A stretch of 42,370 nt of DNA from Amoebophrya sp. A120 (taxonomy: Eukaryota; Protista; Dinoflagellata). Both the position numbers and the translations under genes were made by a program. Positions 348 through 41,971 of the stretch are shown piece after piece. Every line of letters begins with the position of its first letter. Positions within the stretch are counted from its first letter, which is position 1. The notes beneath the pieces were generated by a model. The model did not search any database, was not told the DNA's origin, and saw only the letters and a list, made by a program, of their open reading frames with translations. The stretch lies in the NCBI GenBank assembly GCA_905178155.1, contig CAJINV010000038.1, positions 17,278 through 59,647 of the forward strand, in the 5' to 3' direction.

Positions 348-3300
348 ATGGCGTTTCATGAAAAGCTGGCCTTTTGGAAAGGAAAGGCGGAACAATCTGA
401 CGCGCCCGGCGACACACGGCCACCACCTGCAGTTGCAAAGCCCCGCGCGGCGGCAGCTGTTTCAGCAAATCCGCCCAACATCAGACCGCCGATGCTTGGG
501 CCCCGTGCGCCGGCTGCCTCAGCTAATCCACTCCGCCCGCGCGACGGGCCGGCTCCCATTGTGGGAGAGTTCGCAGTTTTCATGCCGGGGCGACATTGCG
601 CGGCTTCACCAACCTCTTCCGCGTCCGTCGCGCTGCCGGGTTTGGCTGGTGACGCTGTCGCAGTAGAAGGGGAGCAACATGGAGAAGGTACTAGAAGTGG
701 CCGTAGCTCGTCTTTTTACAACAAACCATTCTTGGACGAGCTGTGCGATGACAATGAAGAAGGTTCTTCCGCACGAAACGAGTGCGAGCGCGACACTGCA
801 GCGCGAGCAGCGTCTTATCATTGCACTCAGGCGTCTATTTATATAATATTTATTACTCAACGAGGCTGCACTATCAACATGATAAGTACTACTCATCACC
901 AGCATCGCCTGTAATCATGATATTCTAGGTCATTTCCCGCACGACCAAGAGGAGCTGCCGCGTACTGCGGTCGGAGCCGAAGGCGTAGGGAGTACAGAAG
1001 AGCCGGCCGCAGAGGTCGTCGTGACGATCTACCGCAAGCGTGACGATGTGCGCTTTTCTCTTTCGACGGGCGAATCCTTGTCAATCAGCACCACCGCAGA
1101 ATCAGGGCGGGCAAGGTTCGTCTGTAAAAGTGCCGCCGACGCATGTGCGGACGTCGTCCGTCGACACGAATTGCGGTCCGACACGGTTGTATCCAATGCA
1201 AAAATGTCTGAGTCTGGAAGAATGCAACTTGTGATGCTGCATTTGGATGTCTAAAAAATTTGCGTTGCATGACCCGCAAAAGGAATCTAATTTTTGCTAC
1301 GCGGAGAGGGTATTTGTCATGCGGAATAGGCTTAGGCATCAAGAACCCCTATAAAAAAAATGTGATGCTAGGGCATGCATCACAGACATCATGGCTCATG
1401 CAAACCATGCATAACAGGTCTCAGGATCTTCCAGACCCAGAGATTTCTGCATTTGATACACGGCGCTTGAGGACAATGCGTTTAACGCTGCTGGAGGACC
1501 ACGAGGCGCCAGCAGCGAAGTGGAGGTATCGCATTTGACGTCGATGTCCGCTCTTCAAAAGAATCTTCGTACTACGTTTCGTGATGGTTGAAAACGCTTA
1601 TCAGAAAACTAGGACGTACACTAATTTGAGGGACGAAGAATAAGCGCTGTTGATGTTGTATTATTTTCTTGCTGCATAAAGGCGGGTGGCTGTTGTCGAG
1701 CGAACGTGTCGTCGAGGTTTTGATACTTGACTTTCGGGGTGTGGTCCAAAAAAATGTCGCATTTTGACGAAATAGACCACCCGGAAATGAGCACCACAGC
1801 AGTGGTCCTCTGACCGTCAAATGTAAAAACATGTACTTATCGTGCCTACCTTCTTATATTCGAAAAAAAATGATGAAGAAGCAGTTGTAAGGGTCAGACG
1901 ATAATAAGCATCTCTGCGTCCTCGCACACTGGCACTCTACCGACGGAAGTTTTATATTTCGAACAAACAGGTTATGCTTGGCGATAAGGCGGTGGGAGTG
2001 CAGGCGTCTGCGGCCGGGCAAGCCGGGAGCTTTGCGAGTGTAGGAGGAGCTACCCGCCCACTTGCAGTTGGGAGAAGTACTATTGCGGTTCCGGCACAGA
2101 AAGCGACAAAAGGTGTCGACGCCCCCACAGGAGACGGAATTGCAATGCGCAAGCGATCTACTTCGTCCTTGAAACTACATGAGGCAGGAGCAAACAAAGC
2201 AAGTACAGCTGAGCAACATGATTGGAATCTACCGGAATGTTGCGAAGGCGGTGCTGACTACAGCTCGTCTCTCCAGGAGCCGAAGGCTAACCGGTCTGCC
2301 GAGCGAGGTGAAGACGTCTCTCCGCCAACTTTCGTATCAAATGCAAAAATGTCTGGGTCTGGAAGAGTCGGAGTTTGTCATGCACATTTTGCATGACCCG
2401 GGAGTTCTGTGATGCAGGTCCTAGCATCACGCATTTCATGAGGGCTTCTTCTTGATGCTTATCACGCATGACAAATGCCCTCTCCGCGTGCCAAGAACTG
2501 GACCCACCTTGCTGCTCATGCAACACAGATACTTTTAGAATCCACAGACAGCATTACAAGTTTCACCCTTCCAGACCCAGACATTTTTGCATTTGATATT
2601 TTGAAGAGATCTGCAACTACAAGTTTGGAAACGATAGCTGGAAGCACTCCTGTGCCCTGCCGATAGCAAACCCGGATGAATACGAAACGCTCAAAGCGAA
2701 GGTGATTTACCATCGAACGGGACGCCAAGCAGCTGGGCTTCTGCCGACCGAAAGTGGAGTAGATTCCCGGGGCCTACAAATCACTGGCGACCGCTTGAGC
2801 TCTGCTTCTTCGCCCAGCGACTTGCATTCGCGAGGGAGCCTGATAGAAGGCGACGCTGTACTCTCCACGGCTGCCGCAGACTCCTTCCGCATGGCGCGCG
2901 ACCGCGACCCAGGCGCAGATGCGGCCATTACGCCAAGAGCAAGACGGCCAACTCCTGTGCCGTCGTTGCTGGGAGGAGCAGCAAAGAAGGGAGGGGAAGG
3001 CGAAGCATCCGTGTGCAACACGCCCGTGGAGACGCAAACGCTGCCAGATAGCGATCCCGAGTTGTCTCCGCTTTCTCGAGAGGTCCCAGGGCGGGACGTC
3101 GCGCTCTGCAGTAGCAGGACTATCTGCACGACCGAAGCCAATCTTAACAGATCAGATGCGGATAGCACAGCCCGTGGCTGTGGAAATGTCACACAATCAC
3201 CAGCAGGACTCTCTATTTTCCTCGATTCGCCGTTCGTGCCAGGTTGCGCTCCCCGATCGGCTCCGTCGGCACTGGGGGCGAGCGAGTTTCCGTCCCCGGT

Positions 3301-4660
3301 GTCTGTTGCCAGCTTCCCGACGACTGGACCCCCGGGGGACGTCGACCACCGTGGTGTTATCATTACCGAGGAGCAGCGCCGGGCGCACCTAAAGTCTCGG
3401 CTTCAGCCCGCCATTCTTCAATCACCATATTTCCCGACGCGCCAACGTGATTCGAAGGACTCCGACTCATCTTTCAATGAAAATTCGCACAGAAACGATG
3501 CGGAGTCGACACTACAGCCCCGAAGTACTTCCGAATGGCCTATGTGGAAGCTACGGAAGTCAGAGTATGAATTTGCGTTCGATAATATGCGCACGACTCT
3601 TTATCCAGATGCGCAGCGAATTTTCTTCGGCGACGAAGACAAGAGAGACTTTGATCTGGACAACGAAGCAAGCATGCTTACGCTAGTGGTTGGCTATCGG
3701 GAAAGGAAGGCGACAAAGTTACAGCAGGGTAACGCAGCCGAAAACGACGACCAGTGTCATGGCAAAGAAGCAGATGGCTGTGCAGGAGCGCCAACCGCCT
3801 CTCAGCCTGACTTTGCGCCGTCTTCGTTTGGTAGGCCGGCAGAAGGGGCAAAAACTTCCACGGTCGGAGAACCGGAGGAGGCCGAGCCCGGCAAAATCAT
3901 GAAGCGGGCCAGGAGGGCTAAGGTCGTTAACAAACTTGCTTGCGCGCCGAGGCGGGCGCCGAGCTACGCCAATGCATGAATCCCCAAGACTTGCAACCGG
4001 CTAACCCCTCGACTCCGACGGACGGACCCGGTTCGTTCGGGCAAGTCCAGACGAATGGGGCGCACCCAGCACAGAGCAGCCAAACCAGGCTACGGATGCG
4101 CTGCCGTAAAAGATACAACTCTGGCCATTTTTGCAGGCTTGCTGAAGTGCGGCGCCTGTGTGACGAAGATGACCGCGCCGCTGTTTGTATAGCAAGGCGG
4201 TCTCTCTTTCTGGCTCGTCCGCGTCCTCCTCTATCAAATTATTGTTGCTCAGCCACATAAGTAACCTTGTGTGACGTTGAACCTAAGCAATCCAGTTTCG
4301 CGTAAGTACGAATAATCGCGATCCATCGCAATTCTCAAAGAATCATGGGGAAGGGGTTGCAGGTCTTGGGGTTTTCATTTTCATCATGACCCGCGCTCTG
4401 CTCCATCGTCTTCACCTAAGCAAGACGCGCCCCCGCAGGTGGAAGACAGCGCCGCTGCGGAAGAAAGCCAGTCACCATCTGGGAGCGCTCAGGCTCTTGA
4501 GAACCCCTACGGTCTGGAGGAGTCGCTGTCTCCATGTCCATCCCCGTTGAAGAACCCGTGCCGTAATAAATCCTGGGAGGGCCGCCGCGTGACACCTTCT
4601 GACGACGTGGCGTCGCGTGGAAGCCCAGGCGCAAAACGGTACAAGTCTACTCAGCAGTAG
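348..4660 (+). CDS. Gene 1, multi-exon hypothetical low-complexity protein. Approximate exons: 348-~762, 929-1185, 1463-1525, 1971-2333, 2603-3965, 4398-4660
   Basis: ORFs 333-914, 1021-, 1974-, 2702-3979 and 4439-4660 join in frame after removing IR-bounded elements (277, 269 and 432 nt) and a GT-AG intron at 1526-1970 (phase 0). The first donor is uncertain. No recognisable domain. Confidence 0.6.
1190..1458 (+). mobile_element. Introner/MITE family A, copy 1
   Basis: TIR TATCCAATGCAAAAATGTCTGAGTCTGGAAG ... CTTCCAGACCCAGAGATTTCTGCATTTGATA. Direct repeat ACACGG at 1181-1186 and 1458-1463. Removing 277 nt gives ...RSDT|ALEDNAF... Confidence 0.9.
2335..2598 (-). mobile_element. Introner/MITE family A, copy 2 (reverse orientation)
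   Basis: Near-perfect ~31-bp TIR. Interior is the reverse complement of copies 1 and 3. TSD TTTCG/TTTTG. Removing 269 nt joins ORF 1974 (SPPTF) to the frame of ORF 2702 (EEICNYKF...VIYHRTG). Confidence 0.92.
3966..4390. mobile_element. IR-bounded intron-like element (separate family)
   Basis: IR ATGAATCCCCAAGACTTGCAACC (3976-3998) vs GGTTGCAGGTCTTGGGGTTTTCAT (4355-4378). Flanking direct repeat CCGAGCT/CCGCGCT (3959-3965, 4391-4397). Removing 432 nt bypasses the stop at 3979 and joins the frame of ORF 4439-4660. Confidence 0.7.
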
Positions 4661-5355
4661 GTCCTAGCATCGCCGCGATGCGGGGGCGATAAGATGTAGT
4701 TCGAGCAATCCATTCGAACACGCGTACCAGCGGGGCAAGCTAAATACCGAAGTTTAGCACGTAGAAGATTTACATGCACTACTTTATGCAGCCCTTTTTG
4801 GATTTTGAACGAACCTATTCAAACCAAATGCAACGTCATTGTTTTTGTTTTCAAAGATGGAGACTCATGCAAAGGACACGACCAGCACCGAGTTAGTTTC
4901 GTAGAAACAACAAAGCATCTCGAACTGAAAGGCGTGCGATGGGAGTAGGTACCAGTAAACGTATTTTGCAGGTGGATATGCATTTCAGTCAGGGGTCAGA
5001 AGAACAAAATGCAGAGCAATACAGTAAAGAGAATCAAACAAGACCGTCGCTCTCCACGTCCTCGCTGTTGTTCAGAGCGACCTAGAAGTATGTGTCAAAA
5101 ATCCATGAGTGTGGTTTTCTACTTCAAGCCCGCACCAAAGAAATAGGTTTGCTTCATTTGCGAGCGAGGTTTCAAACCGGCATGCCCATTCATTGTTAGC
5201 GAGGAATGCACAGAAGAAAGACATTTGATGTGCCTCCTGTGTCTACTTTGAAAGTAGACACTCGTCTGCTAATAGATACTTTTATTCCCAGCAGCAAGGC
5301 ACGGAAGATACAGTAATACTTACCAACATCACCTGCAAAAAGAAAATAGTACAAC

Positions 5356-5583
5356 ATGAAGCCTATGATCACGTGTCTGCTCCTCGTCGGAGTGGCAGAT
5401 GTTTACATTTTCGGTGCAACGCCGCCCGGTGGTCCGAAACTCAGATTGGCAGTGGATGAAGACGATTCCTTCGTGGCTGTTTACGAAAAATTCGTCTCTC
5501 CCGCCGAGGCCACTCACGTCGCGAAACTGGCAGATAAGATGGGTTGGAAAACATGGCCGCAATAAACACAGCGATGAAGACAA
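5356..5583 (+). pseudogene. Short signal-peptide ORF with weak resemblance to a prolyl-4-hydroxylase N-terminus (fragment or exon)
   Basis: Hydrophobic start MKPMITCLLLVGVA and VAVYEKFVSPAEATHV, similar to the P4H 'vyenFLSpeEcdhl' motif. Ends in a stop with no catalytic half nearby. Confidence 0.25.
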
Positions 5584-5830
5584 AGTACTAAATTTTGCTT
5601 TTATTTGGCTGTATTCTCATCTTATGATTTTGATTTCATCTTCGACATAATTCCAAATCCAATCGAGAACGCAATATGCAGGAGATAAGAAAGAGTGTCC
5701 AGATGAACAACAATCATGTTGACATATAAAAATTATTTCACTCCTAGGTACATCCAGAGTGCGAGCGCGAAGCCGAGTTTCCGGCACTCTTTCAGTCGTT
5801 GCATGTATCGGCTTGCATTTTTCTGTGCAG

Positions 5831-8800
5831 GTTGTACAACTACAGTAGCCGGAGCGGATGAAGTCGCTGTCGCGCGTGGGAATCTACGCGGGACGAGTGT
5901 CGGATCAACACTAGCGGCGCCGAGCTCCGAAAACACGACCTCCACTACTTTAGACGGCACGAATACGGCACCGAGCGGCGCGCCAGCAAGCAGTGTTACA
6001 GATGATGCCGATGCGGAACAAGAAATTCAGAGCTTCCAGGAAGTGAACAGTAGGTTCATTCCCGAAGAAGTAGACATCGCGAGGACCAGTCGAGGTCCAG
6101 GGCAGGATTTGCACTTTGTTATCGACTATCAAATGCAAAAATGTCTGGGTCTGGAAGAGTGCAACTTGTGATGCTGCATTTGGATTCCAAAAAAATCTGT
6201 ATTGCATGAGTACCAAAGGGAATGTAATTTATTTTTGCTACGCGGAGAGGGCATTTGTCATGCGGAATAGGCATCACGAAGCTCTCAGAGAATCTGTGAT
6301 GCTAGGGCATGCATCACGGGCATCAGGGCTCATGCAAAACGTGCATGACAAGTGTCAGAATCTTCCAGACCCAGACATTTTTACAGTTGATATCGACCCC
6401 GAATCACGACGTGTTGATCAGGGACGGAGCAGCACGCGACTTCCCAAAGATGCTGACCTGCACGAGGTTGACGTCGAGGTGGAGCACAAGGACGATCACG
6501 CAGATGATCCAACTGGTCTTTTTGACAGTCCTGATGAAATAGGATCAGACGAGGTCGTAGCGTCATCTTTTGTTCAAGAGGAAGTAGATGAAGAAAACCA
6601 GAGTGTTGAGGTCGGACAAAGAGAACGAACTAGTACAGAAGAAGCCGCGCCGAGGGCCTCGAGGTCATCTTCACACTCAGGAGGTCGAGGAGGTGGTCGC
6701 AGATCCTCATCCAGATCTTCCCCTAAGCTTGCAGAAAAGGCGGGCAGCCGCGCCAAGCAGCGCAGCAGTGGTGGGCGCAGCAAAAGTCCGTCTACATCTT
6801 CTTCGTCCAGCAAGCGGGACAGGAAAGCTCCTCCTTCTTCTTCGTCCAGCAAGCGGGACAGGAAAGCGCCTCCTTCCACCAAGAAGGCGAGCGGCTTGAA
6901 GAAAGGCGAAGAGTTATACCAAGATGAGGATGTGTGGGACACGCGAGGAACACAAGAGGCGGACAACAAGCTCGGGAGCAAACAAAGCCACCATAATTAC
7001 GATGCTCCTGGCCAGGAGGAGCAGGACGACCAGGACGCCGAGGTGGAGGCCGCCCCAGCGGCCGAGGTCTTCGTGAATCCGCCGGTCAAGCAGCCAACAA
7101 GTGGGCTGCGCGAGAAGCACCTGAACGCAGCCTCGCTCTTTCTCTTGCAGCCGACGGAGCGCGGCGCGTTTACGAACCTCAACTCGATGGACCCGTACGT
7201 CGCCCACCAGCGCTCCGATGTCGGGAAATTGCGGTGCCGTAAGACAGATTCGCTCGCGCACGTTGCCATGAAGATCCAACAAATCTACTTCACGGTGGTG
7301 TGGGAAAGTTTCTCCGGCGAGGGCAACGACGGCTTGTGGACGGAGCGGACGACCCACCCGGACGTGTTTAACTTCATGGACTTCCGCCTGGAATTTTCCA
7401 CCGTGCTGCATCGGTGTCTGGAGGTCGTGGCGGAAAAGGGCTGGTTCGCGGCTGTGGACGCCTTCGGGGACGCGCTCGGAGAAGTGGAGCAGGTCAACAC
7501 AGGCCGCTCGTTGCCAGGCACCCCGGGTTCGTCGAACCGGAAGGTCCAGAAAAGGGGCTTAAAAGGAACGACCGTGGACAATAGCGACGGGAAAAAGTAC
7601 AAGTTTCGCGACCGAGGCGACCGCGACATATCGATTGCAAGGATGTCTGTGTGCGCGGAGCAGTGCAGAGGTTTTTCATGCATGTTTTGGCTCGCAGGGG
7701 TGGGGTTTCGGATTGGGGTGGTGAAGATTCTCTACTGGAATGCGTGCGAAAGCATGGCGCATGTCGCTCAGGCCTTTTGCCTGCGGCGCACAAGAAGTTC
7801 GCCAAAAAAGATAATTTGCGTTGCAACACGTAAGTACTTGCGAGTTCTCTTGGCCGTCATGCAACGCAAATTTTCACTTTTGTAATAAATTCTAATTTGT
7901 TTTTGGATAATTAGATATTTGTGTAGTCCAGCTCCAGGCCCAGAGCTTGCCTCAAGTCCTACCGCACCTTCCAGACCCAGGCACATAATTTGCAATGCAT
8001 AAGCGGTTGTCGTGTACGATTCCGGGTACTTCCGCAAGATGTCGAAATGCCACCTCGTGCAGAACGAGTACTCGCGACTGAAGTTGTTCATCGGGCTCAG
8101 CAAGTGGGGGAACTGGATGGGCAGTACCAGCGACCCGACCTCTATTAAGAGGAAAAATCACCCCTCCCCATATCGAAAAGGTATGATGTTTCCAAAAATT
8201 TCTGTTGCTGATTTGAGACCACAAATCGCGTCTCTCTTGCAAGAAGGCAACTCCACAAGCTCCGCAGCATTGTGCAGGCGGTTTGTGATGCTGATGGGCC
8301 TACAGCTCGGACGTTCACGTTTCTCATGCTAGACGCCTAGGCCAAAACCTCTCTACTTAGGCTCAGCATGGGCCTGCATTTCTCTCCAGCAAGAAAGAGC
8401 CGATTTGTGTACGCAAGTCCTGCATTAGCGACTTCGTTGTCGTGATATGGGGAGGGAGCATTCTTCCTTTTGATGACCTCGTTTCTCGAGGCTCCGGAGG
8501 ATCCCCCGGAGCTCGAGCGCAGCTCATACGCGACTGTCAGCCGGGCGGGCGACCCCGTGTTTCACCCGGAGCTGGCGAGGAAAACAGACGGAGATATTGA
8601 TACTAACGAAGACCAGCAAAACCAACTAACTGCAAAAGAGAGGAGAAGCCGGAGCATTAGGCAGGGACAGAGCGTCCGTGGCCGTGATCCGTTTAGATCA
8701 GGGACGGACGTGCCGGAGCACACAGGGACGGGCAGCAGCTTTTTCGAAAGGGAGGATGATCGCGACGACGAGCAAGATGAGGAGGTTGAGAGCGATAGCG

Positions 8801-11800
8801 CGGAGGACGACTTCGTTCTTGGTGGTGGAGCAAAAACGCGCAAAAGGAGAAGAAAAAGATCGCCGGAAGTTGAAGTAGAAGAGCAGAGGTCCTTTTTGGA
8901 AGTGCAGGAAAAGCAGAAAATTATTGCGGAGGGTATTGACAGGTTGAAAACAATCCAGCACGACTTCGAGCACCTGTGCGGGTACCAGCACTGGTGGCGT
9001 GACGAGTTTCCGAACTTGTACAATCCACTGATTGCATTCTACACGCACGTCGTAGTGGAAGACAAAGAGCTCACAGAGCGGGACCCGGGGCCCAACCTGT
9101 TCGAGGGGTTCTACCACCTGTTGCGCATGCACCTCAAGCAAATGCTGGCGCGGCAGCGGCTCAAGCGCGCCGCTCTGTACGCGGAGGACGTCGTGGCGGT
9201 GCTCGCGGACTTGCCCGAGGTGTTTCAGGAGCAGCAGTACTTGTTGTGGAGCGAAGTGTCGAAAAAACGGCAGATCTTCGACCGCGCGCGGATCGTGGCC
9301 CAGAAGGCCTTCATGAAGTCGGACCCCATGTTCACGCGGGCGATGAAGGCGAGTCAGGAGTCCTACGGGTGCACAGACGGGAACTCGGTGTCGCAGTGCC
9401 TGAAGACCTGGGCCAACTTCCCCGACATCGCCGTGAAGCAGCAATCCGAGTTTGCCGCGAAGATGACCGTGATGTTCCGGCGCAAGGTATCCTGAGGAAA
9501 AGCGGGCCCCACACCCCAGAGTCAAGATGGGAACAATTGCGGGAGAGTAGAGGTCCAAAACTTCAATTTCTTTTGGCAGTCACGCATGAAGACAACTTCG
9601 GCTCTGCAGTGTAGTCATATGTGCAAGCTACTCCAGCCGCATTTTTACCAATCAGCGCTACCATCCTGATTAGCTCGTCGTGGTCACAGATTTCGAAGCA
9701 CCATCTTCAGAAAATGCCTCTCATGTTGGAGCCGCATGAGATGAAACATCCTGAGCATGCAAATGTGAATGACAGCTCTGGAGGGATCGTGGGGAGGTTT
9801 TTCCACAGGATGTAAGGAGCTGGAATTCGGCATCATCCAGAGCGGGCTCCGGCTTCCTGACCTGTTTGCGGACCTGAAAATGGCGCTCGCCCGGTTTATC
9901 AACTTCCAGATCGTCGTGTACTTCGACGCCTTGCGCGTGCATCTCGACCTGCCCAGCAATGAGTTTCCGGACCTGATCCAGCCCCCGCAGGGGAAGAATT
10001 TCGGAGTCGGCAACGCCGCCGCGCCGGGGGGCGGCGCGCCCCTGGCCGACTACGTCCGCGTGACGCCCCCGCGGGAGTTGCTGCAGCTGTCGGGGAAGTA
10101 CGCGGGCGCGGAGGGCACCTTGAGAGCGTGGACGCGGACGGCGCACGTGCAGGAGGTGACAGAAAAGTTCCACGGGCCCGGCTGTTTTAAGGACTGGTGC
10201 TTGTCGGTGTACGTGCGGGACCACCAGCGCATCTCGAAGGTAGCGATTGGTCAAAGCTCGTGGCAAACACAGCGGGGCAAGAACAAGAATGACGCAGCAC
10301 CGCAGGACCACGATGCGCGCCCGACCGTGGCTCTCTGGGAGGTCGGCTGTGCGTCCTCGGTCCCCCGCGACTACTTTCTCCTTACAGTCGAGGGGAGCTC
10401 GACGGACCTGTTTCTGGACCACGAGCACGGCGCGTCGACCAGCGCTGCGGCCTCCTCCGCATCTTCTTTCATGCAAGAGGAATTGGTGCCAGATGAAGGT
10501 TTGTCCTCTTCGCCTGCTCCGACGATGGATTCCTCTGTGACGGTCGGCGCGTCAGACGAAATCGAGAGCGGGGAAGATGAACAAGTTGTAGAGGAGAACA
10601 GCCTCGTCCACACGACCAGGAATACACCGGGAGAAGATCATACGGGTGAGAGGGCTACTGGCACGCCCGGCGCCGGTCACGAGGGCCGGAGTTTCCAAGA
10701 GCGAAGATTCCAACTGCTGCCATCAGCGGCAGGGGAAGAGCAAGAGGAAGACGATCTTCGGGTCGGATCGCGATCACAGTCGGCTCCTAGGAGTACGAGA
10801 ACATCGTCAGAGCAGCACGCGCTGCCGCAGGGGTCACCAGGAGACGCAAGCAACGCATTTTCGATGCTGGAGGAGCCGAGGCCTCTACTTTCTACCGACG
10901 CAGATCGTCACCACGACGAGCCCGACGAGTCAAAGAGTACGAGCGACGCTTCAACAATGTCATCCCCACACGCTAGCAGCTCCTTCACGCAGGTCTTCAA
11001 AGGCCTTGGCAACATGCTCAGTTGGGACCGAGGAGAGAGCGAGGCGCTCAACCAGCAGGACAGATGGGTCGACTGGCTGAAAAAGTCCAAACTTCATCCC
11101 GGGGCGCCACTCACAGGCGACGCCTCTCAGCCTGTGTGGACCACAACAAATATGAAAATTCGAAAGGGCGACGACGTTTTTCTGAAGCAAGGATCGGGAG
11201 AGAACAAAGGTACTCTACGTACCTTTTCTCATCTCAGACAGAAGCAAGAAGACTGAACACAAGAGCAATAAATAAAAGACAAGCCTCGGGGCGAGCCCTG
11301 CTGGGCTCGCCTGGGCTTGGGGTTGTCGGTTGCGGCCGGTAAGTCGGTGACTGAGTAAACTGCAAGGAGACAGGGAGAGGGGGCCCGATGTCAGTGGGGG
11401 CGTTGTGAGTGCGCGTTCGCGCGCCGGCTTTATTCGACAACCCCACTCCAGCTTGCGGCCTGCTTGCCCCGCTCCGGCCTGCCAGGCCGACTCTAGCCTC
11501 TGCCTACCGGCTGCCGCTGACCTGCCGGCTGGCTGCCGCTAGCCCGCCGGCTGCCGCGCGCTAGCCCCGGCTGGCTGGCCTCTGCCTGCCGGCTGCCGCT
11601 GGCTGGCCTCTGCCTGCCGGCTGCCGCTGGCCTCTGCCTTCCGGCTGCCGCTAGCCTCTTCCTGCCGCTAGCCTCGCTCTCTCTGCGCGCCTGCCGGCTG
11701 CCGCTAGGCGGCCTGTGCCTTCCGGCTACCGCGAGACAGCATCTGCCTGCCGGCATCCGCTAGATGGCTCCAGCCTGCCGGCCGCCGCTAGATAGCCTCA

Positions 11801-14800
11801 GCCTGCCGGCTGCCGCTGGCCCCCGCCTGCCCGCTGCCGCTTGCTGGCCTCTGCCTGCCGGCTGGCTGCCGCTCGCCCCTGCCTGCCGCTGGCCTCCGCC
11901 TGCCGCTGGCCTCCGCCTGCCGCTGGCCCCTTCCTGCCGCCCGCTGGCCCCGGCTTGCCGGCTGCCTGCCGCTGGCCTCTGCCTGCCGCTGGCCCGCCCC
12001 TTCCTGCCGCTGGCCTCTGCCTGCCGCTGGCCTCTTCCTGCCGCTGGCCTCGGCCTGGCCTGCCGCTGGGGCTTGGCGGCCTCTGCCTGCCGCTGGCCTC
12101 TTCCTGCCGCCGGCCTCATCCTGCCGCTGGCCTCTGCCTGCCCTGCCGCCAGACTCACTCTGCCTGCCGGCTGCCGCTAGCCTCTTCCTGCCGGCTGCCG
12201 CTAGCCTCCGCCTGCCGGCTGCCGCTGGCCTCTGCCTGCCGCTAGCCTCTGCCTGCGCTGCCGGCTGCCGCTGGCCTCTTCCTGCCGGCTGCCGCTAGCC
12301 TCTGCCTGCCGGACGCCGCCCCTGGCCTCTGCCTGCCGGGTGCCGCTCCTGGCCTCTGCCTGCCGGCTGCCGCTCCTGGCCTCTGCCTGCCGGCCGCCTG
12401 CGTGCCGCTAGCCTCTACCTGCCGGCTGCCGCGGGCCTCTTCCTGCCGCCAGCCTCTTCCTGCCGTTGGCCTCTGCCTGCCGCTGGCCCCTACCTGCCGC
12501 TAGCCTCTTCCTGCCGCTAGCCTCTCCCTGCCGCTAGCCTTTGCCTGCCGGCCAACGCTCGCCTCTTCGTTCCTGCCGGCTGCCGCTAGCCTCCGCCCCC
12601 CGGCTGCCGCACCGCTTGCCGCCGGCTGCCGCTAGCCTCTCTCCGGGCCGGCTACCGCTCGCCTCTGCCTGCTGGCTGCCGCTGGCCTCTGCCTGCCGGC
12701 TGCCGCACCGCGCGCCGCCGGCTGGCGCTAGCTGCCCCTGCCTCCCTTCCGGCTGCCGCACCGCGGGCCGGGGGCTGCCGCTGGCGTCGCTCTGGGCCGG
12801 CCGCGCGCTAGCCGATTGGCCGGCCCGGCCGCCGCTAGATAATCCCCGGCCAATGTTAGCCTGCCGGCTGCCGCTGGCCGTCCAGCCGCGGCTAGCCTTC
12901 CGGTTGCCGCTGACCAGCCTGCCGACCGGCCACTGCTAGCCTTCCGGCTGTTGCTGGCCTACCGGCCGCCGCTAGCCTGCCGGCTGCTTTGCGCATCGCG
13001 TGGGGGCTCTCTTGTTGTGGTCCCTGGCTGCCGCTCTGCTCACGGCAGGGACGACCTGCAATAGTTAGCTTCTTGCGCCCTGTCCCTTGACGAAATCGCG
13101 CGGGCCGCTCTACGGGCCCTCTTAAGCATCCCCTTAAAGATCTCCTTAAAGATTCCCTTAAGAATGCCCTTAAAGATGCCCCTTAAAGATTTCCCCTTAA
13201 AGAAATCGCCTTAAAACCTTTCGGCCTCCCTGAATCCCCATGCTACGGGCTTCTGGGTGCCAAAACCTTGCGCCAACGCACACAGAAAAACGCGTCATAC
13301 CGTCGGCGCAAAAATGAACCCCCATGGCCTCATCGATTCCGCCCCCCCCTTTTTTTAAGGAGTTTCTTAAGGGGAAGTCTCAAGGGGAGTTCTTAAGGCG
13401 TTTTGTTCATAGGAATAAGTAGAGGGAATGTGATGTTGCACAACCACAAGCGCTAAGTCAAAGATAAATCTGGCCTCAGTGTCTGTAGAAATATGATCCA
13501 GGGAAGAATCTTCAGACTTAAGTATATGATTATTTCTTGCAGCTTTTATTTCCTGCAGGTGTCACCGAGGACATGTGCCGCGCAAAGGTGGAACAGATGG
13601 ACAGTAAGACGAAGGAACTGAAATTGATTCTGTACGAATCCTACACGCGAAGCGACCTCGGACAGATCGCCGAAAGCAAACGTCCAAAACTTGTTTACCG
13701 AATCGGGACCGGCACGGCGATCGACCCGCTGGATTCTGCCTACGTGGCCTTGAACCCCGAACCATCCGGCGTGCAGACGCAGAGCGGCTCGTCTCTTGTG
13801 GCTTTCAGTTACCACGAGCCAGCCGGCGGGATTGCCTTTCGAGTGCAACAGAAGACGGTGCGAGGGGACAAGGGCGTACGCAAGCAGCAAACCGTGCTGA
13901 TTCCCTGGGTTGCCGAGTGGGCCACGCCTGAGTCGCGCGACCGCCTGTGCCTGCTTCTCGTGCGGCAGAAAAAAAACACCGACGTGCCCGCAGTAGGTGT
14001 GTGCGACGAGAAATCGGGTAGCAAATCGAATCAGGTAGGTGCGCGAGTTGTGTTTGCCCTAAAGGAACAAGGGAGCGACAACTCAAAATTTTGCGCGACC
14101 ATACCGGGATCGGGAAGCGCGAGTCGTTGCGTCTGGTGGACGGCGCAACCAAACCCGCCCTGTGCGAAGTTCCTCGGGGCCACAATAATCACGGGAGAGC
14201 ACTACAGCCAGGACGTTTACCCGGCGGCGTACCTGACGTTGCGCACCGCGCACGGGAAGAGCGCCGATCATCTGCAGGGAGACATCACCAAGGTGGAGAT
14301 TACTCCGGCGAGCGGCACTACCGAGACAAAGCAAGTGCATGTACAGGGTGTGGGTCTTTACCGCGCACAGCTGCGCGTAGGGCTGGGCGGAAGCCTGTCG
14401 TGGTCACAGAAGACTCGGCAGCAAAGCGCAAAATGTCGCACCGGACTGGCGCACGTGGGCGCCCTTGCGATAGAGGGGGCGGACGACCTCGAGCCTGCGC
14501 GCCTCGGCGCGGGGGCGGACCACGCGGCGGCTGCGCAGGAAGTACACTGGAATCCCGCGTTCGATAGCACGCAGCGTTGGAAGCACTGGAGAGGGATGAT
14601 CACGGAGGTGCGGCGGCCCGAGCACGAAACTATTACGGAGTTCGCGCAAACGGCGATCGAGTTCTCGCACGCATTTGGGAAGTACGAACTGATGCTGGGG
14701 CTGAGCGGCGCCCCCGCGCAGAACTTTGGTTTCGGTCTGCAGTTTCGGATCGCCTCGGAGAGGTGGCGGGACATCACTCTGAAAGTAGTGGCGGGCCTGC

Positions 14801-17800
14801 AGGCGGCTGCCAAGCGAAAGCGCACTGCGGTGCAGCATGATCAGCACGGCGCAGGAGAGCAGCACGGGGACGACCACGACGGTGGTCATGATCACTACGC
14901 CTCGGTCGGGTATCCCAGAGAAAAAAGCTGGCAGGTCATATGTGTATATGCAAAAAAAAATACACAAAAAAAATATTAAAAGTTGAATAAAAAAAACATG
15001 TATTGCATATCCTTATCCGAAGCAGCATGCTATGGGGCGGCCCATGACAAGTTTTTCTGTGTATTTTTTTATTTTTGCAATTGGACTCTGTAAGACCTAC
15101 CTCCTCCTCCTTGCTGTGGACTCCGTAAGACCTACATTACAAAAAAAAAACAGACATGTAGGAGGTGGATGGGATTGAAAGATGCATGAAAGCAAGCGCG
15201 TGTAAAGAAAAGAAAAGGAATCGCGAAATGGGTTCTACGAGTTGCTTTGGGTAGTTTTGTTGGTCACTGCAAAAATGGAATCGCAAGTCGTTTGTGCGTC
15301 AAGCCCTCCGCTCGATGCTGCCAGTCAGCTGCTGGATGACGGTGCCGGACCTGCTCGCTGCTGCGCGCGACGTTGGTGTGGATGGTCAACATGGATCGCC
15401 AGCTCCCCCTCTTGCAAGACCGTTCTCGCCTCCATCTCAGTGAGGTCGTGGATAGGGTTTGGCGGGTGACTCCCGTTGCGCGATGATCCTGCCGTTTCTG
15501 ATTACACGTCCCCGGCACACTCGGGTAGTAGGTCGGGTTGGTCGTTTTCCATCGTCGTTCGCTTGGACCCTGGGGTTTCCTTTAAGGCGTTCGGCAGGTC
15601 TTGCGGCCTCGCGCTTCAAGGTGTGTTGCCCTGAGATCGCGTGGTTTTCGGACTACTGCGGATCTGCACCTTGCTGCCCGTTGTGCTTCTTGACTCGTGG
15701 TTTTCCTCCTTCCTTGCTTTGCTCCTCCTGTGGTGCTTGGTCCCCAGAGTTCCGGGGCCTTGGTTCTCTGGGTTACCTGGGTCGAGATGGCTGCGCGGTT
15801 CGATTCTTCCTATGCCCCTGCCCCTCTGGTCTGTGCCGCTGCAGTCGGAGGTGTGCGTTTTCATTCGTCAGCCAGCCTCTTAGAGCTGAAGCTATATGAC
15901 GTTTGCGTTGGGGAGATTATCAACGGTCCCTCAGGGCATTGCCCCGTTGCTCGCTCTTGGTGGGAGGTGGTTGAGCTTGCTTCGGGAAGAGTAGCCGGAG
16001 TTGAATTGGCTTCTTGCCTTTTCATTTGGGTCTGGTCGACTATAGGTTCCACCCTCGTTTCTCACCTCCAGGGGCCCTGGGCACCTCGCCATTGATGTTT
16101 CACTTGGTGGAAGATGACAGGGTTCTACGAGCTATTATGGGTGTCTATTGTCTTTTATTTTTGCATTACAAATATGCCCTGCCAGACCCAGCTTTTTTCT
16201 CTGGGATATCGGAACGAACGTACTTGGCGGGGAAAGGCTCCTACCGACCTCGTACCGGATCGCCGAGGGCCACATGCACGGCCGCAACAACTTTCGTCCG
16301 GATTCCTGGGATTCCGAGGGCGTCGAGATGTACTTCCTGTATCACGAAGCCTTTCAAAAGACACTTGATGCCATTGTGATGGGATTTCAGCTCTACGAGT
16401 TCAGCGCTCTATGAGAGTACACAGCTCCCCCCCTGTCGCTGCCTCGGAATTTGAAGAGGATGGACTTGGACTTGTGAAGGCAGGGGCATCAAGGGTGAGA
16501 GTTTAGCTTGTTCTGCATTTTTTACGAACGAGCATAAAGATCCACGCCCACCGATATCGATGAATAGTTACTAGTACTCATAAATATATCTGCATGATTC
16601 TGCTCTATATTGAGGGGGGCTTCCCAACCTCAACATCAACTTGCCAATGTGAATCTAGCCACGCAGTAGAGAAAATCAAAGGCAAGAATGATGTGGTCGG
16701 TACTTTATGGTATGTGCCTTGTTCCTGTTCGCGCACGACAACTCTTGCTGAGGAGTCGAGGGGAGGAGCTGTTCCATGTAATATGTGAATCACGCCGACG
16801 GGATCATCCAGGAACACCACTTGGTTGACGCCCTCGAGGAGTTAGGTGGGGAGGGGGAGCGGAACGAGCTTGCGTCGCACATACTGGATCATGCTCTGCA
16901 CGGGAACGAGCAGCTGGGCGCGATTTTGGGCCAGATTGCGCACTTCCACCACATTTACAGCAATGTGGGTTCCCTTGCAATGAATGCGGCGATCATTGGC
17001 ATCGGAGCCATGGTCTACCACGGAATGGACATGACGGCTTTCTTCACGGCCGGTTGGACGTTTTGGTCTGACGCGGTGTACACAAAGCTGGTGGGCGTTG
17101 CAGCGTTTTCGGTGAACCGCGGTGGAATGGGGGCGATGGGATTTCTTGCGGGCGCAAAAATGCTATGTGCGAAAATCACTGTTCTTGGACACGGTGTTTT
17201 CGGATTCGGTTTCATAGCGACTGTGACGACAGCAGTTGGTTTTGCGCTGCTGTTTAGCGATGCGCTTTACACGTTTGTTCCCGTTCCGCCGGCCTCGCAC
17301 TTCCTGGTGGCGCAGCGGATGGAAGTCCGGAAAAAGCGCGACCGCGCGTACGTATTTGCGGCGCTGCCTGTCGCCCGACCGCTCCTGAAAACCCACTTGG
17401 GTCTGACCAATGGCGGGATGGGGCGTGGAAGTACCGGCGCATCCCGAGATGTGGACCAGCGCGGCCAAGCAATGTGGTCCGGGGCGAAATGGCTGCGCGG
17501 TCCGGTTGGAACGTTTTCTGCGACGCAGTCCTACGGTTTGTGGAAGCCCCTCGGCATCTCTCGTGATGAGGACGCGGATTTACTGAAGGGCGGTAGGAGC
17601 GACGGGGACGGGGTCGCCGTCGCCACTGCGGACCTCGTGGGGAACCTGATTGTTTCGCGATGCACCGAAGCCGGGAGTGGTGCAGCCTGTCGCAGTTTCG
17701 GGACTTTTCTCCCCGTATCGAATGCAAATATGTCTGCGTCTGGAAGCCGAGGCTCGCAGATGTCTGTAATGCAGGTTTTGCATGAGCATGGGACCGATGG

Positions 17801-20800
17801 CCCAGGCCCAGGGCGTCCCTGCAGGTACCAGCGTCACAAGTTCTGCAAGAGCTCTGCAATGCCTATGTATTCTGCATGAGAAACCCACTCTCAGGGCGGC
17901 CAAAAGCAAAAATGAAATGCATGGCCGAGTTTTGTGTAGTTGGCAGAGAGCCTCACAAGTTTGCACCTTATTTCCAGACACGCACATGTTTGCAATGCAT
18001 ACCCCGCGGCTGCCGCGGAGGTCCTGAGCGCCGCAGAGGCGGACGCCGCAAACGCCGCACAGGTCGACCTGAACGAAGATTCGGCGATCGCGCCCTCGCA
18101 GCGAAAAGCCGGAAAGAGGACCGTGTTTACTTCACCGCACACGGACCTCCTCGGTAGCGCAAATAATGTGTGGACCATGAGGTTTGTGAAAATGGCCCCC
18201 AGTCACAAAGACCGCTGGCCCGACCTTGCTTACTTTCCGTACTATCAGGAGATCCCCGACCTCAGCGCTACTGTCACGGTGGACAAGGAAAAGCCAAAGC
18301 CTCCTGCTGCGCAGACAGCGAAGTTTTTACCCCACGGCTACGTCTATAACATTGCGCCGGAGTCCTGGGCCGGGCAGGTACTGGACAGCGCACTCGCAGG
18401 ACAAAACCGCTTTGCGCGCATCGTGTACTCGGTCGAGCGCGAATTGAACCGCCTCCTGTATCTGATGATTTCGATGTTCCCGAACGAGATCCGGCTGTCA
18501 CAGGCAGGAAGTCGGGCGTTCGAGTCTCAAACGGACAAGGCGCGGTCTGATTTGCAGGATTCCCTTAACGAGAGGGCTCTAGGAGTGGAAGATGTCCTGC
18601 AGCCCCGAAACGCCTTCGTGAAGCAGATGCCGGCTCTAGTAAACGGCCGGACGTGCCTTTCTGTAGTTGGTGGAGACGAGAACGACGCAACAGCGGAGCG
18701 CTCGTCTAGAAACAGTGACCTAGGAGTATCCTGTGTAAAGACGTCCTCGCCCCATGGTCAAGATGGGAAATCTGCTGGACAAATCAACAAGCTTTGGTTG
18801 TTCCGCGTGACATGTTTAGCTAGTTCAGCAGCGTCACAGATCTAGCGCATCATAGTCAGACTGGTTGGAGCGTGACAAATGCAAATCCCGAAAAACGGCG
18901 ACAAAATGCTTCTCATGGGGCTCCGTACGAGAAAGAAATATTTTCAGCGTGCAGATTTGCATCAAAAAAATGATTTGCGTTACAGCTATGGGGTGGGGAC
19001 GTTTTTACATAGGATAAGGAGCGGACAACCACGACCCTGAAAGCGGTGGGCGGCTGCTGGTGCCGGTTGATGTTTTGCACAACGACAAGGACAAAATGGC
19101 CTGGCTCGGAACGATGGGCGTGATCGGATTCAACAAACTTTTCAGCCGAAAGGTGGGGAGGACCTTTGGTTTCGAAGCTGACCCTTCGAGTTGTGTAGAT
19201 TCGGAGATACGGGCCGCCGAACAAACGGGCACCGCCATCATGGGCAGCCTATTTTTTCGCGGACCGTGGCGGTCGCACGGCGTTCTGAGCGTCGAGGCCT
19301 CGACCGAGGACCGTTTCGCGGTCCGGAGGTGGGCGTTTGCGGCGTCGGAATCGGCTGCTCGGCCACCGGTCGTCGGCTCGTCTCCCTCTTCGGTCAGTGC
19401 GTCGGCAAGCAGTTCTTGGGACGTCAAAAAGGTGAGTATTCGCTGCGACCAACTGGTGCAATTGGATCAGCAGTACCTTCGGCCCTATTTCGAGGCGCGG
19501 TTCACTTCGAAAAAGGGGTTGTTTGGCTACTTCCTGCGGTTTCTGTCTGTGCGAAGCTGGGCCAGCGGAACGGTGGACCAGTTGCACATGTACAGACCGC
19601 CGCCGCTATGTGCATGCAGGAAGGCGGCCTCTGCCTCCTTCCTGCAGACCGCGCGGGAGGGCCAGGCGCTGGCAGTCGGGGAGAAAGAGAAACTTGAACA
19701 GAAGAAGCAGCAGTTGCAACCAGGCCCGATAGCTATGGCGGCGGGGTTAGTAGGTTCGGTGGGTGCTGGGATCGCTATGAACGCCGTGAACCGGTTCTCC
19801 GGGGACCTGAGCATGGCCTGTGGGGGCGAGGTGCCGTGGCGTGGCAAGGGTAGCGTTGGTGCGAACACGAGGAAACCGGACGACCTGAAAAACGCTGACG
19901 GCAATCACGGCGGGGGCACGCTAGAAAGCGGGAGCCTAGAGGAGGAAGCGGCATTAGTCCATTACTGGTTGGTATGCATTGCAAATGCGTCTCGGTCTGG
20001 AAACTGGTCGTGATACAGGTTGGACAATCATGAGAATCATGCCTGACTTTTTGGCAGCCGAGCATGACAAGTTTATTATTGAGTTTCTACGCTTAGGCTT
20101 ACCTTCTCTTCGGAGCGGGTAACGTGGCGTAAGTTGCTATTTCCAGGGGACGAGAAGGTGCCTTTTCTGCATGGCAAACGCAAAGGCAAAGTGCGTTTTT
20201 GCATGACAAAAAAGTGGGGTGCTTGGGTGACGTGCATGACAGCCTTCGGAGTCATGCTGGCCGAGCATGACAAGCCTTGCACTCTTCCAGACCCAGCCAT
20301 ATTTGCAGGGGATAGCTCGAGGAGGCGCTGACGCTTCTTGGCCCCGTGTTTCTTCTGCCGTTCGAGATTCGCAACGCCGTGACGGCGGTCCTTACGCCAA
20401 AGAGCGGCTCGCTGGAAGAGAGCTCCTTCAAACCGGACAAACCGTACGCGGAAAGGGTGGTCTGTTCCATGGAGAACCCAGCCGCGTGGCGCAGCGAGGA
20501 CGCCAAGGTATCGTACACCTTCAGAACCGACGGGGGGCAAAGCCAAAAGGAAGAAGAGGTCACGCTGTCCTATCCGGCGCTGGACTGCGTGCATGCCAAG
20601 ATGGCAGCGGAGCTGCAGGCAAACAAATACCTGGCGAACACCTTCAACCTTGGCAATGCGGCGGCCATCCATCTGCGCGAAACCACGCTGCAGCTTCCCG
20701 GACTCCCGCAGTCCACGGAGCGAACCGGGACGTGGCGGTGGCCCCAGTGCGAAGAGGCGAGTGATCTGATCAGCTTCGGATTCTTCGAGAACCGGGGGAA

Positions 20801-21750: not shown

Positions 21751-22439
21751 AAAGTAAAAACACAAAAAAAAGCAACCTTCTAGTTCGATTACAGCAAAAC
21801 TTTAACTGGCAACTTTCTTTTCACAAAAACAGCTTCACGCAGTGACAACGTAAAAATCTCTTCCTTTGAAAAAACCGTTTACCTCGAGCTCTCTCGTGCA
21901 ACTTTCAACGATCAAACTTTTACAAGCAAGCAGCTCTTCAACTTTTGGACTTTCACCAACGAAAACAACTTTTAGAAAGGTTTACTTTTAGCAATAAAAC
22001 TTTTTCGCGTTCGTTCTACCAGTCCGTTCTGTTTTTCTCAAGAAAGAGCTCAAAGTGGCTCCTTCTAACTGGTATTTTTATTGAAGTAGCGATATTAAAA
22101 GTAAAAACACAAAAAAAAAAACAACCTTCTAGTTCGACTACAGCAAAACTTTAATGGCAACCATCTTCTCACAAAAACAGCTTCACGCAGTGACAACGTA
22201 AAAATCTCTTCCTTTGAAAAAACCGTTTACCTCGAGCTCTCTCGTTCAACTTTCAACGATCAAACTTTTACAAGCAAGCAGCTCTTCAACTTTTGGACTT
22301 TCACCAACGAAAATAACTTTTAGAAAGGTTTACTTTTAGCAACAAAACTTTTTCGCGTTCGTTCTACCAGTCCGTTCTGTTTTTCTCAAGAAAGAGCTCA
22401 AAGTGGCTCCTTCTAACTGGTATTTTTATTGAAATAGCG
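21751..22439. repeat. ~347-bp AT-rich tandem duplication (2 copies)
   Basis: 21751-22090 and 22098-22439 are near identical, from AAAGTAAAAACAC...CCTTCTAGTTCGA to TATTTTTATTGAA.TAGCG. Confidence 0.93.
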
Positions 22440-22899
22440 CTTGAAACACACGAGAGAAGAAAACCTTCACCCGGATTCCGTGTATCCAATATGAACAAAC
22501 AAACACGCAGCTCGGACAACTCGGAGGCGTAGCTAGTTGTTCAGGTGTTCTACTGGATGTAAATCTTCGGCGTTTAGCTTGCCGTCTGCCTTTCGAAAAT
22601 GCCGAAGTTTAGCACGTGCGCGTAGCATTGCTATCATCCTAATTACAACGACTCACACTTCCGAGCAGAGCCACAAGCATGCTGCAGAAGATATTGATCC
22701 CAATAAGAGTAGTACGCCGCGTGGCTAGAAAAACAGCGGCGGTTGGATTTGAACAGTTGTCTTGCCCTCATTCACGTTGTTCGCCCAGACAATCATGAAA
22801 AAACAAAGATGCGAGTGCTCAGCTTAAGTAGAACAGCGCCCCTATTTTTGTTGATAGCATTGCACAACGTGAACGTGGCGGCCCTCTACTTTTTTTTTT

Positions 22900-41968: not shown

Positions 41969-41971
41969 CTT

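What the first reader, a model, noticed from the sequence alone, without database searches (positions are those of the whole stretch)
1190..20314. Dense system of transposon-derived non-canonical introns (introners) that reconstitute two genes
Seen: at least 12 IR-bounded elements of 264-1298 nt lie where one ORF ends and the next begins. For the nine TATC/TATG-ended copies with clear TIRs, removing the element plus one ~5-bp duplication (TCGAC, CCCCG and AGGAG perfect; TTTCG/TTTTG, CAAGG/TAAGG and TCGGG/TCGGA near perfect) gives the length needed to restore the frame: 277, 269, 271, 378, 330, 1303, 291, 295 and 347 nt. Only two can be read as GT-AG; others read GT-CG, GT-TT, GT-GA/GA-AG or have no GT. 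Known: IR/DR-bounded invasive non-canonical introns are reported in Amoebophrya. Inference: precise removal is guided by the TIR stem and TSD rather than by spliceosomal dinucleotides.
Basis: partly seen in the sequence, partly recalled or inferred. Interest (0 to 1): 0.85.

Follow-up and report, generated by a model that had tools for sequence, protein, structure and literature searches.

The report
Hairpin transposon introns with fixed ruler
Eleven small hairpin-ended transposons sit inside two genes of the marine parasite Amoebophrya, and several are missing from RNA-like assemblies; this odd intron class is already published, but the cut likely falls at fixed distances from the hairpin, which would make its unknown splicing mechanism testable.

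Summary
Largely confirmed, and a known system. Eleven elements (264-1298 nt) with TAT-started terminal inverted repeats interrupt two genes. Removing each plus 5 nt gives stop-free frames of 3013 and 686 aa. RNA-like contigs of one sample skip 4 of the 9 gene-2 elements directly, 2 more by length and 1 in a paralogue-like contig. A deposited Amoebophrya A120 protein is 100% identical across another junction. These are the A120 introner elements of Farhat 2021.

Refinement: the three junctions whose cut can be placed all fit one register, 1 nt before and 4 nt after the repeat pair, including two sites where the duplication has decayed to 1 of 5 matches. So the TSD likely does not guide splicing; it makes new insertions silent. 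In related contigs 155 of 210 elements have a perfect 5-bp TSD, 3 of 169 can be read GT-AG, both orientations occur (33:27), and the first T is invariant at the 5' end (226 of 226). A wobble test for selection on the RNA stem failed. The scan noted a similar intron in another genome (e1-7695377).

The parts
931..3979 (+). Gene 1, coding part from exon 2 on (686 aa open frame; first exon probably 348 to about 830, donor not fixed); no Pfam family
   Evidence: open frame after removing 1189-1462, 1526-1970, 2334-2602; no unique cover in RNA-like run X1
1190..1458 (.). TIR element, 269 nt, main family; flanks GGTTG/CACGG (1 of 5); predicted intron 1189-1462 (GT-CG)
   Evidence: splicing not tested on RNA
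1526..1970 (+). Predicted GT-AG intron without a paired TIR (not counted as an element)
   Evidence: frame, no end-to-end pairing, no interior hits in 128 loci
2335..2598 (.). TIR element, 264 nt, 30 of 30 arm match, inverted relative to 1190 and 6127; TSD TTTCG/TTTTG; predicted intron 2334-2602 (GT-TT)
   Evidence: splicing not tested on RNA
5553..21038 (+). Gene 2: 12 exons, 3013 aa, Amoebophrya family protein without Pfam match; start codon inferred
   Evidence: collinear with A120 paralogue P0001 (32-39% identity in three blocks) and AT5 homologue P0003 (24%)
5585..5747 (+). Canonical GT-AG intron, 163 nt
   Evidence: joint in an X1 contig
6127..6392 (.). TIR element, 266 nt, TSD TCGAC perfect; intron 271 nt; none of 8 equivalent registers is GT-AG (CT-GA at -1/+4)
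   Evidence: X1 contig joins 6119 to 6391 with 0 other letters; X4 contig runs out of the element into the exon
7629..8001 (.). Diverged TIR element, 373 nt, flanks CGACA/AGCGG (1 of 5); intron 7628-8005 (AT-CG)
   Evidence: indirect: X1 record 354 to 7627 leaves 102 letters; X1 376 nt against X4 754 nt from the same start 7354, difference 378
8143..8475 (.). TIR element, 333 nt, TSD ACCTC perfect; intron 338 nt (CT-CT at -1/+4)
   Evidence: indirect: X1 record maps 8475-9138 and has 58 further letters, starting at the first position predicted for a 338-nt skip
9488..9812 (.). TIR element, 325 nt, TSD CAAGG/TAAGG; intron 9487-9816, the only one readable as GT-AG
   Evidence: 330-nt joint seen only in a paralogue-like X1 contig (12 and 31 other letters); gap-free protein alignment with P0001 across the junction
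11210..13558 (+). Canonical GT-AG intron, 2349 nt, holding a GC-rich tandem array
   Evidence: frame; loose end at 13558 in X1-X3 resembles the end of the upstream exon
14911..16208 (.). Long TIR element, 1298 nt, arms about 60 nt, with a nested fragment of another element; TSD TCGGG/TCGGA; predicted intron 14910-16212 (GT-GG)
   Evidence: no contig listed across it; P0001 alignment runs through with a gap
16410..16783 (.). Diverged TIR element, 374 nt, flanks CGCTC/TGTGA (1 of 5); intron 16409-16787 (CT-TG), unique register -1/+4
   Evidence: joint 16408 to 16788, both = 0, 154 letters on the short side, 0 other letters, in X1, X2, X3; arm register
17716..18001 (.). TIR element, 286 nt, TSD CCCCG perfect; intron 291 nt (GT-CC at -1/+4)
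   Evidence: deposited A120 protein CAD7974985.1 (91 aa, partial) is 100% identical across the junction; no contig listed across it
18727..19016 (.). TIR element, 290 nt, TSD AGGAG perfect; intron 295 nt (GT-GA at -1/+4)
   Evidence: joint 18721 to 19017, both = 5, in X1, X2, X3
19973..20314 (.). TIR element, 342 nt, flanks GTTGG/GCTCG (3 of 5); intron 19972-20318 (GT-TC), register -1/+4 or 0/+5 only
   Evidence: joint 19971 to 20319, both = 1, in X1, X2, X3; gap-free alignment with P0001 right at the junction

Best explanation
These are short non-coding DNA transposons with TAT-started inverted ends and 5-bp target duplications that sit in coding sequence and are missing from RNA-like contigs, likely because the paired ends form an RNA stem that a modified spliceosome would cut at fixed distances, 1 nt before and 4 nt after it. 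Shown: the elements, the multi-copy families, the 5-bp TSD, both orientations, restored frames, skipped forms of element + 5 nt. Inferred: (1) MITE-like insertion by a transposase not seen here; (2) the arms pair in the pre-mRNA and bring the ends together; (3) the intron is N + element + NNNN, so the mRNA keeps four bases of the left TSD copy and one of the right; 1 + 4 equals the TSD length, so a new insertion is silent whatever the target or orientation, and the TSD may later decay; (4) the first T of the TIR is intron position +2 and likely stands in for the U of a GU donor in a spliceosome reported to lack U1 snRNA. My odds: spliced introners 0.95, fixed register 0.7, spliceosome as the enzyme about 0.55.
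For: Joints: 271 nt, 379, 295, 347 nt, by length 378 and 338 nt, and 330 nt in a paralogue-like contig. All 7 are compatible with -1/+4; the 3 informative ones allow only -1 (16409), -1 by inference (7628), and -1 or 0 (19972). X1 has no depth in 10 of 30 bins (all within gene 1 and the spacer) where X4 has depth in 30 of 30, and X1 also skips a GT-AG intron, so it behaves as RNA. One 3013-aa frame, broken by retaining any 1 of 9 elements; homologue alignment runs through 8 of 9 element junctions in order. Related contigs: perfect TSD in 155 of 210 at 5 nt, 1 at 4 nt, 0 at 6 nt; removal of element + 5 leaves 300 nt or more open on both sides at 33 of 153 junctions, against 3-5 of 153 for + 3, 4, 6, 7 and 6 of 153 on the opposite strand; the -1 base is A/C/G/T 53/40/42/34; GT-AG readable in 3 of 169; orientation 33:27. 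The 5'-terminal T is kept in 226 of 226 oriented elements while the 3'-terminal base deviates in 10; 4 of those 10 look like mis-paired calls, leaving 6 against 0, or 8 against 0 with the window's two. All nine commonest A120 non-canonical sites in Farhat Table S4 have T as second base. Predicted end-to-end pairing of 12.7-25 pairs in 10 of 10 elements folded, 0 in 2 control introns. U1 snRNA not detected in A120 (PMC7789003 passages).
Against: Only 3 junctions place the cut, one of them indirectly, all in one gene and one sample; the RNA status of X1-X3 is the tool's guess and these are contigs, not reads. Chance agreement of three registers is about 1 in 18 given the first. G-U wobbles are not in excess over A-C mismatches in the sense strand (142 against 189, p = 0.01 the wrong way), so selection on the RNA stem is not shown. 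At 16410 the outer 11 positions are not predicted to pair. Eight of the nine Table S4 sites also end in A-N, which fits strand-blind tabulation of -1/+4 but equally a mirror register -4/+1. Farhat's Fig. 3 legend calls the splice sites variable relative to the hairpin. No joint was listed for 14910 or 17715, and none of gene 1 is covered. Nothing here tests which enzyme cuts.
Confidence: 0.7

Rival explanations
1. Same introns and same ruler, but removed without the spliceosome by a structure-specific nuclease and ligase, or a separate machine, as proposed for euglenid nonconventional introns.
For: Both orientations, no AG, random -1 base. Euglenid nonconventional introns have a similar offset stem (+4..+6 paired with -8..-6) and leave as circles without lariat form (review PMC11282704 section 6); here +2 pairs with -5. 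U1 snRNA was not detected.
Against: The one invariant, strand-asymmetric base is U at +2, the position of the U in GU donors. Nearly all spliceosomal proteins and U2, U4, U5, U6 are reported in A120. Canonical and element introns share gene 2.
Confidence: 0.3
2. One reading: the TSD helps guide the cut, and the register floats inside the direct repeat.
For: Skips always equal element + 5 nt; 4 of 7 joints lie in repeats where several registers are equivalent; Farhat describes variable borders.
Against: 16410-16783 and 7629-8001 keep 1 of 5 TSD matches and still lose exactly element + 5 nt.
Confidence: 0.12
3. The skips are reverse-transcriptase template switches across hairpins flanked by short direct repeats (artefact type recalled, not from a call), and the genes are broken.
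For: Strong hairpins plus direct repeats are the usual substrate; all data here are cDNA-type contigs at best.
Against: The 16408 to 16788 joint has no direct repeat (both = 0). A 3013-aa frame needing nine removals, collinear with two homologues, would not persist. Frames are restored genome-wide only at + 5.
Confidence: 0.03
4. The skipped contigs are DNA: empty alleles or paralogues, or DNA-level excision.
For: X1-X3 are RNA only by guess; one 330-nt joint comes from a paralogue-like contig.
Against: X1 lacks gene 1 and the spacer and also skips a GT-AG intron; the listed X4 pieces run into or through the elements (7354-8107, 8337-9138, 6368-6826, 9475-9927). Joined contigs at 6119, 16408, 18721 and 19971 have 0 other letters against the window exons.
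Confidence: 0.04

Closest known systems
Introner elements (IEs) in non-canonical introns of Amoebophrya sp. A120 (Farhat et al. 2021, PMC7789003; seen: abstract, passages, sections 16 and 25, supplement legends and Table S4 rows; figures not visible)
   Same: IR starts TAT, then seven variable bases, then AAA; 3-5 nt direct repeats (5 bp in the Fig. S19 legend); about 240 nt; non-canonical ends; no transposase inside; a deposited A120 protein is identical across one junction here.
   Different: [quoted passage not shown] Here the placeable junctions fit one register, TSD decay is tolerated and U+2 is invariant. The deposited model for gene 2 that I found is a 91-aa fragment; the elements rebuild 3013 aa.
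Euglenid nonconventional introns (review PMC11282704, section 6 read)
   Same: TIR stem joins the ends, fixed offset between stem and junctions, TSD-like repeats, non-canonical borders, likely MITE origin.
   Different: Offset (+4 with -6 against +2 with -5 here); pyrimidine|purine border consensus not seen here; circular products known there, untested here.
Introner-like elements of Polarella and Symbiodinium (Roy et al. preprint 10.1101/2020.10.14.339549, passages) and of Micromonas (review PMC11282704, passages)
   Same: DNA transposons that create introns; some classes have a 5-nt TSD, work in both orientations, and take the donor from the last TSD base plus the first element base (class 12).
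   Different: Those recruit G-started donors and AG acceptors from the TSD or the element, so they need particular target sequences. Here the target is unconstrained.
Fritillaria borealis non-canonical TIR/TSD introns (review PMC11282704, section 6)
   Same: MITE-derived, non-canonical, thought to be removed by an adapted spliceosome.
   Different: Specific AG-AC and AG-AT ends and a TAC target; no such consensus here.

Membership tests
Amoebophrya A120 introner elements | Terminal inverted repeat at both intron ends, starting TAT + 7 nt + A run | tested here: met
   11 of 11 start TAT and end ATA (9) or ATG (2); an A-rich run near positions 11-15 in the main families, weak in the diverged 7629 and 16410 copies
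Amoebophrya A120 introner elements | Direct repeat of 3-5 nt at the borders | tested here: met
   4 or 5 of 5 matches in 7 of 11 window elements; 155 of 210 perfect in related contigs; decayed in 3 window elements
Amoebophrya A120 introner elements | Repeated in the genome as families | tested here: met
   interiors of 8 of 11 hit 2-86 of 128 loci; 7629, 16410, 17716 hit none; 62-68 X4 contigs leave the element ends into other flanks
Amoebophrya A120 introner elements | Removed from the transcript with non-GT-AG ends | tested here: met
   4 of 9 gene-2 elements skipped directly, none readable as GT-AG; RNA status of the runs is a guess; gene 1 not covered
Amoebophrya A120 introner elements | Host is Amoebophrya A120 or a near-identical strain | tested here: met
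   CAD7974985.1, named Amoebophrya sp. A120, 100% identical over 91 aa
MITE (non-autonomous TIR DNA transposon) | TIR, fixed-length TSD, short, no transposase ORF | tested here: met
   the 1298-nt element has stops in all six frames
MITE (non-autonomous TIR DNA transposon) | Cognate autonomous element with the same TIR | tested here: inconclusive
   none among 6 elements over 600 nt in 128 loci, several of them mis-paired calls; flanks were at most 1500 nt; no genome held
Canonical U2 spliceosomal intron | GT/GC-AG ends | tested here: not met
   GT-AG readable in 1 of 11 and 3 of 169; G[TCA]-AG in 12 of 169
Canonical U2 spliceosomal intron | Lariat intermediate | not testable with these tools
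   no raw reads of this strain laid; X6 and X7 gave 61 and 2 partial reads on TIR ends only
Euglenid-type nonconventional intron | End-pairing stem at fixed offset from the junctions | tested here: inconclusive
   stem predicted in 10 of 10 folded; fixed offset rests on 3 junctions; wobble test negative
Euglenid-type nonconventional intron | Excised as full-length circles | not testable with these tools
   contigs only; no such joint among those listed

The most novel reading that the evidence does not exclude
Amoebophrya A120 splices by a structural ruler: any TAT-ended hairpin is cut out 1 nt before and 4 nt after the stem, reading only the U at intron +2. The ruler equals the 5-bp duplication of the resident transposons, so every insertion, in either orientation and at any target, is born as a perfect intron. 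The apparent chaos of A120 splice sites (NT-NN) would collapse to one rule.
Probability: 0.6. Interest if true: 0.7.

Novelty: already known. Interest (0 to 1): 0.42.

Why it matters
The intron class is published for this strain, so the locus itself is a further example. The splicing mechanism is still open. A fixed -1/+4 register with an invariant U+2 and no need for the TSD gives exact predictions for minigenes, lariat or circle searches and re-annotation; here it rebuilds a 3013-aa gene for which I found only a 91-aa deposited fragment. It would also explain why these transposons spread through coding sequence at little cost.

Tried and rejected
No whole genome is held. No listed holder is on record as RNA. 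Gene 1 has no unique cover in X1, and bins 14610-15153 and 17874-18145 have none in X1-X3; holes prove nothing. The joint and piece tables were cut (190 joints and 17092 pieces not shown), which is why 7628 and 8142 rest on lengths. Three homologue searches found nothing, so the 274 against 277 question and a protein check of the 7628 register stay open. Pfam: 0 families for 19 window peptides and for P0001 and P0003; PDB: 0 for the ORF at 5356; the protein atlas gave no answer. G at -1 in 7 of 11 window elements (p = 0.008 post hoc) suggested selection for GT donors; rejected, as related contigs show 42 of 169 and no rise in older copies (26 of 102 against 18 of 76). G-U excess test negative. 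TSD mismatch positions and directions did not tell which copy is exonic. The 12th element (1527) was rejected. Rows dropped: one search kept 186 of 210 elements (TSD 3 of 5 or better), 169 oriented, 153 junctions in loci of 1500 nt or more; one search oriented 226 of 238. Detection required TAT/CAT and ATA/ATG ends, and the search word was an exact TIR, so the set leans to young copies. Roy 2023 (Curr Biol) is not held; its preprint has no mention of Amoebophrya.


Full report
Observation. The window holds 11 elements of 264-1298 nt between 1190 and 20314 whose ends are inverted repeats starting TAT and ending ATA or ATG. A strict scan gave 9 arm pairs against 0-3 in 20 shuffles and none beyond 21400. 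Three elements (1190, 2335, 6127) are one family at 77-82% identity over their length, 2335 inverted. The likely twelfth, at 1527, has no partner arm and is an ordinary GT-AG intron. Only 1 of 11 can be read GT-AG.

Genes. Removing nine elements plus 5 nt each and two GT-AG introns (5585-5747, 11210-13558) gives one 3013-aa frame from 5553 to 21038; retaining any one element gives a stop. Gene 1 gives 686 open codons from 931 to 3979; its first exon is not fixed. A search of protein representatives with one exon returned 3 hits: a 3589-aa A120 paralogue, a 91-aa A120 partial protein, and a 631-aa AT5 protein. The partial protein is 100% identical across the junction of 17716-18001, so the deposited annotation already splices that element and the window is A120 or nearly so. 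The paralogue aligns in order through 8 of 9 element junctions, without a gap right at 9486 and 19971. No Pfam family was found; the function of the protein is not known, and a long hydrophobic stretch near aa 1965-2070 suggests a membrane protein (inference).

Transcript evidence. Runs X1-X3 (one sample, RNA by the tool's guess, contigs) behave as RNA: X1 has no depth in 10 of 30 bins where X4 has depth in all 30, and it skips a GT-AG intron. Direct joints with no other letters: 6119 to 6391 (271 nt, X1); 16408 to 16788 (379 nt), 18721 to 19017 (295 nt), 19971 to 20319 (347 nt) in 3 of 3 runs. By length: an X1 record of 376 nt and an X4 record of 754 nt start at 7354, the X1 piece stops at 7627 and leaves 102 letters, which is 8006-8107 (378 nt skipped); another X1 record starts at 8475 with 58 letters left, as a 338-nt skip predicts. 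The 330-nt joint comes from a paralogue-like contig and could be an empty site. No joint was listed for 14910 or 17715, and gene 1 is not covered.

Where the cut falls. With a perfect TSD the cut cannot be placed. Three sites have decayed repeats. At 16410-16783 the arms align without gaps and the joint is unique: 1 nt before the left arm, 4 nt after the right. At 19973 only -1/+4 or 0/+5 fit. At 7629 the contig lengths give -1/+4. The other four joints allow it. So the intron reads N + element + NNNN, and the mRNA keeps four bases of the left repeat and one of the right. The repeat is not needed for precision; it makes a fresh insertion silent because 1 + 4 = 5. This rests on three sites in one gene.

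Population of elements. Of 210 elements, 155 have a perfect adjacent repeat of 5 nt, 1 of 4 nt, 0 of 6 nt. Oriented by a 5-mer coding model trained on window exons (169 elements), the -1 base is unbiased, AG at +3/+4 occurs in 9, GT-AG is readable in 3, and the main family lies 33:27 with or against the gene; removing element + 5 leaves long open frames at 33 of 153 junctions against 3-5 for other lengths and 6 on the opposite strand. With detection symmetric between the ends, the first T is kept at the 5' end in 226 of 226 while the last base deviates in 10; 4 of these look mis-paired, leaving 6 against 0, 8 against 0 with the window. A transposase sees both ends alike, so this asymmetry points to an RNA-level need for U at intron +2, or for a U-A or U-G closing pair. 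Against the stem model, G-U wobbles are fewer than A-C mismatches (142 against 189). Folding predicts 12.7-25 end-to-end pairs in 10 of 10 elements folded and none in two ordinary introns, but the outer 11 positions of 16410 are open.

Mechanism. Most likely a MITE-like element inserts with a 5-bp duplication (inferred; no transposase seen). In the pre-mRNA the arms pair, and a spliceosome reported to lack U1 snRNA (PMC7789003) would dock N-U-A-U as a donor-like end and cut 4 nt past the stem in place of AG recognition. The main rival is a nuclease-ligase route like that suspected for euglenid nonconventional introns, which have a similar offset stem and leave as circles (PMC11282704 section 6). 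Reverse-transcriptase switching and empty DNA alleles fit poorly, chiefly because of the repeat-free joint at 16408.

Comparison and novelty. Farhat et al. 2021 describe exactly this class in A120: IR motifs TAT + 7 + AAA, 3-5 nt direct repeats, 29,850 repeated introns, unknown mechanism. Their Fig. [quoted passage not shown] All nine commonest A120 non-canonical sites in Table S4 have T second; eight also end A-N, expected if junctions were listed without regard to gene strand but also if a mirror register exists. I found no statement of a fixed register in searches or in the passages read of PMC12130899, PMC11282704, PMC12005148, PMC12787238 and the Roy preprint; figures, supplementary figures S19-S23, the Gozashti datasets and Roy 2023 were not visible and may hold it. 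Polarella and Symbiodinium introners differ in needing G-started donors and AG from the target. An earlier scan note reports a similar intron in another genome (not checked).

Verdict. Real, already known as a system in this strain; interest 0.42 for the testable ruler.

Noticed in passing
window 15383-16154: The interior of the 1298-nt element matches a 2.4-kb contig in X1-X3 (31 differences over 646 nt) that goes on unlike the window at both ends; the minus strand reads as a broken ORF. Likely a fragment of another, transcribed mobile element nested in the introner.
   Followed up: partly
window 11500-13000: GC-rich degenerate tandem array (periods 17, 24, 28) inside the 2349-nt GT-AG intron, followed by CCTTAA-type arrays at 13129-13398.
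   Followed up: no
window 5356-5565: Short ORF (69 aa) with a hydrophobic start, ending in a stop just at the start of gene 2; a diverged copy is in X1 and X4 contigs. No Pfam or PDB hit.
   Followed up: partly
window 21400-42370: No TIR element was found here; the long ORFs at 24423-26603, 28106-29476, 29371-31248, 31664-33079 and 34169-36796 look uninterrupted and have no Pfam match. The ORFs at 28106 and 29371 overlap in different frames.
   Followed up: partly
window 22899-23889 and 37671-39231: Two copies (88-92% in blocks) of a repeat that starts with a GGAATCAAGTT array; the second has the array inverted at 39089-39231, like a long-TIR element of about 1.5 kb.
   Followed up: no
window 21751-22439, 31507-31723, 41447-42370: Tandem duplications of 348, 108, 159 and 68 nt units, the last two with internal palindromes.
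   Followed up: no
loci L001-L128: Within TIR stems read in gene orientation, A-C mismatches outnumber G-U pairs (189 against 142), strongest at positions 4-12; unexplained, possibly subfamily orientation or strand-biased mutation.
   Followed up: partly
window 9109-11209 and 13558-13668: Diverged contigs with high depth figures in X1-X3 show at least one close paralogue of gene 2 with the same exon order.
   Followed up: no
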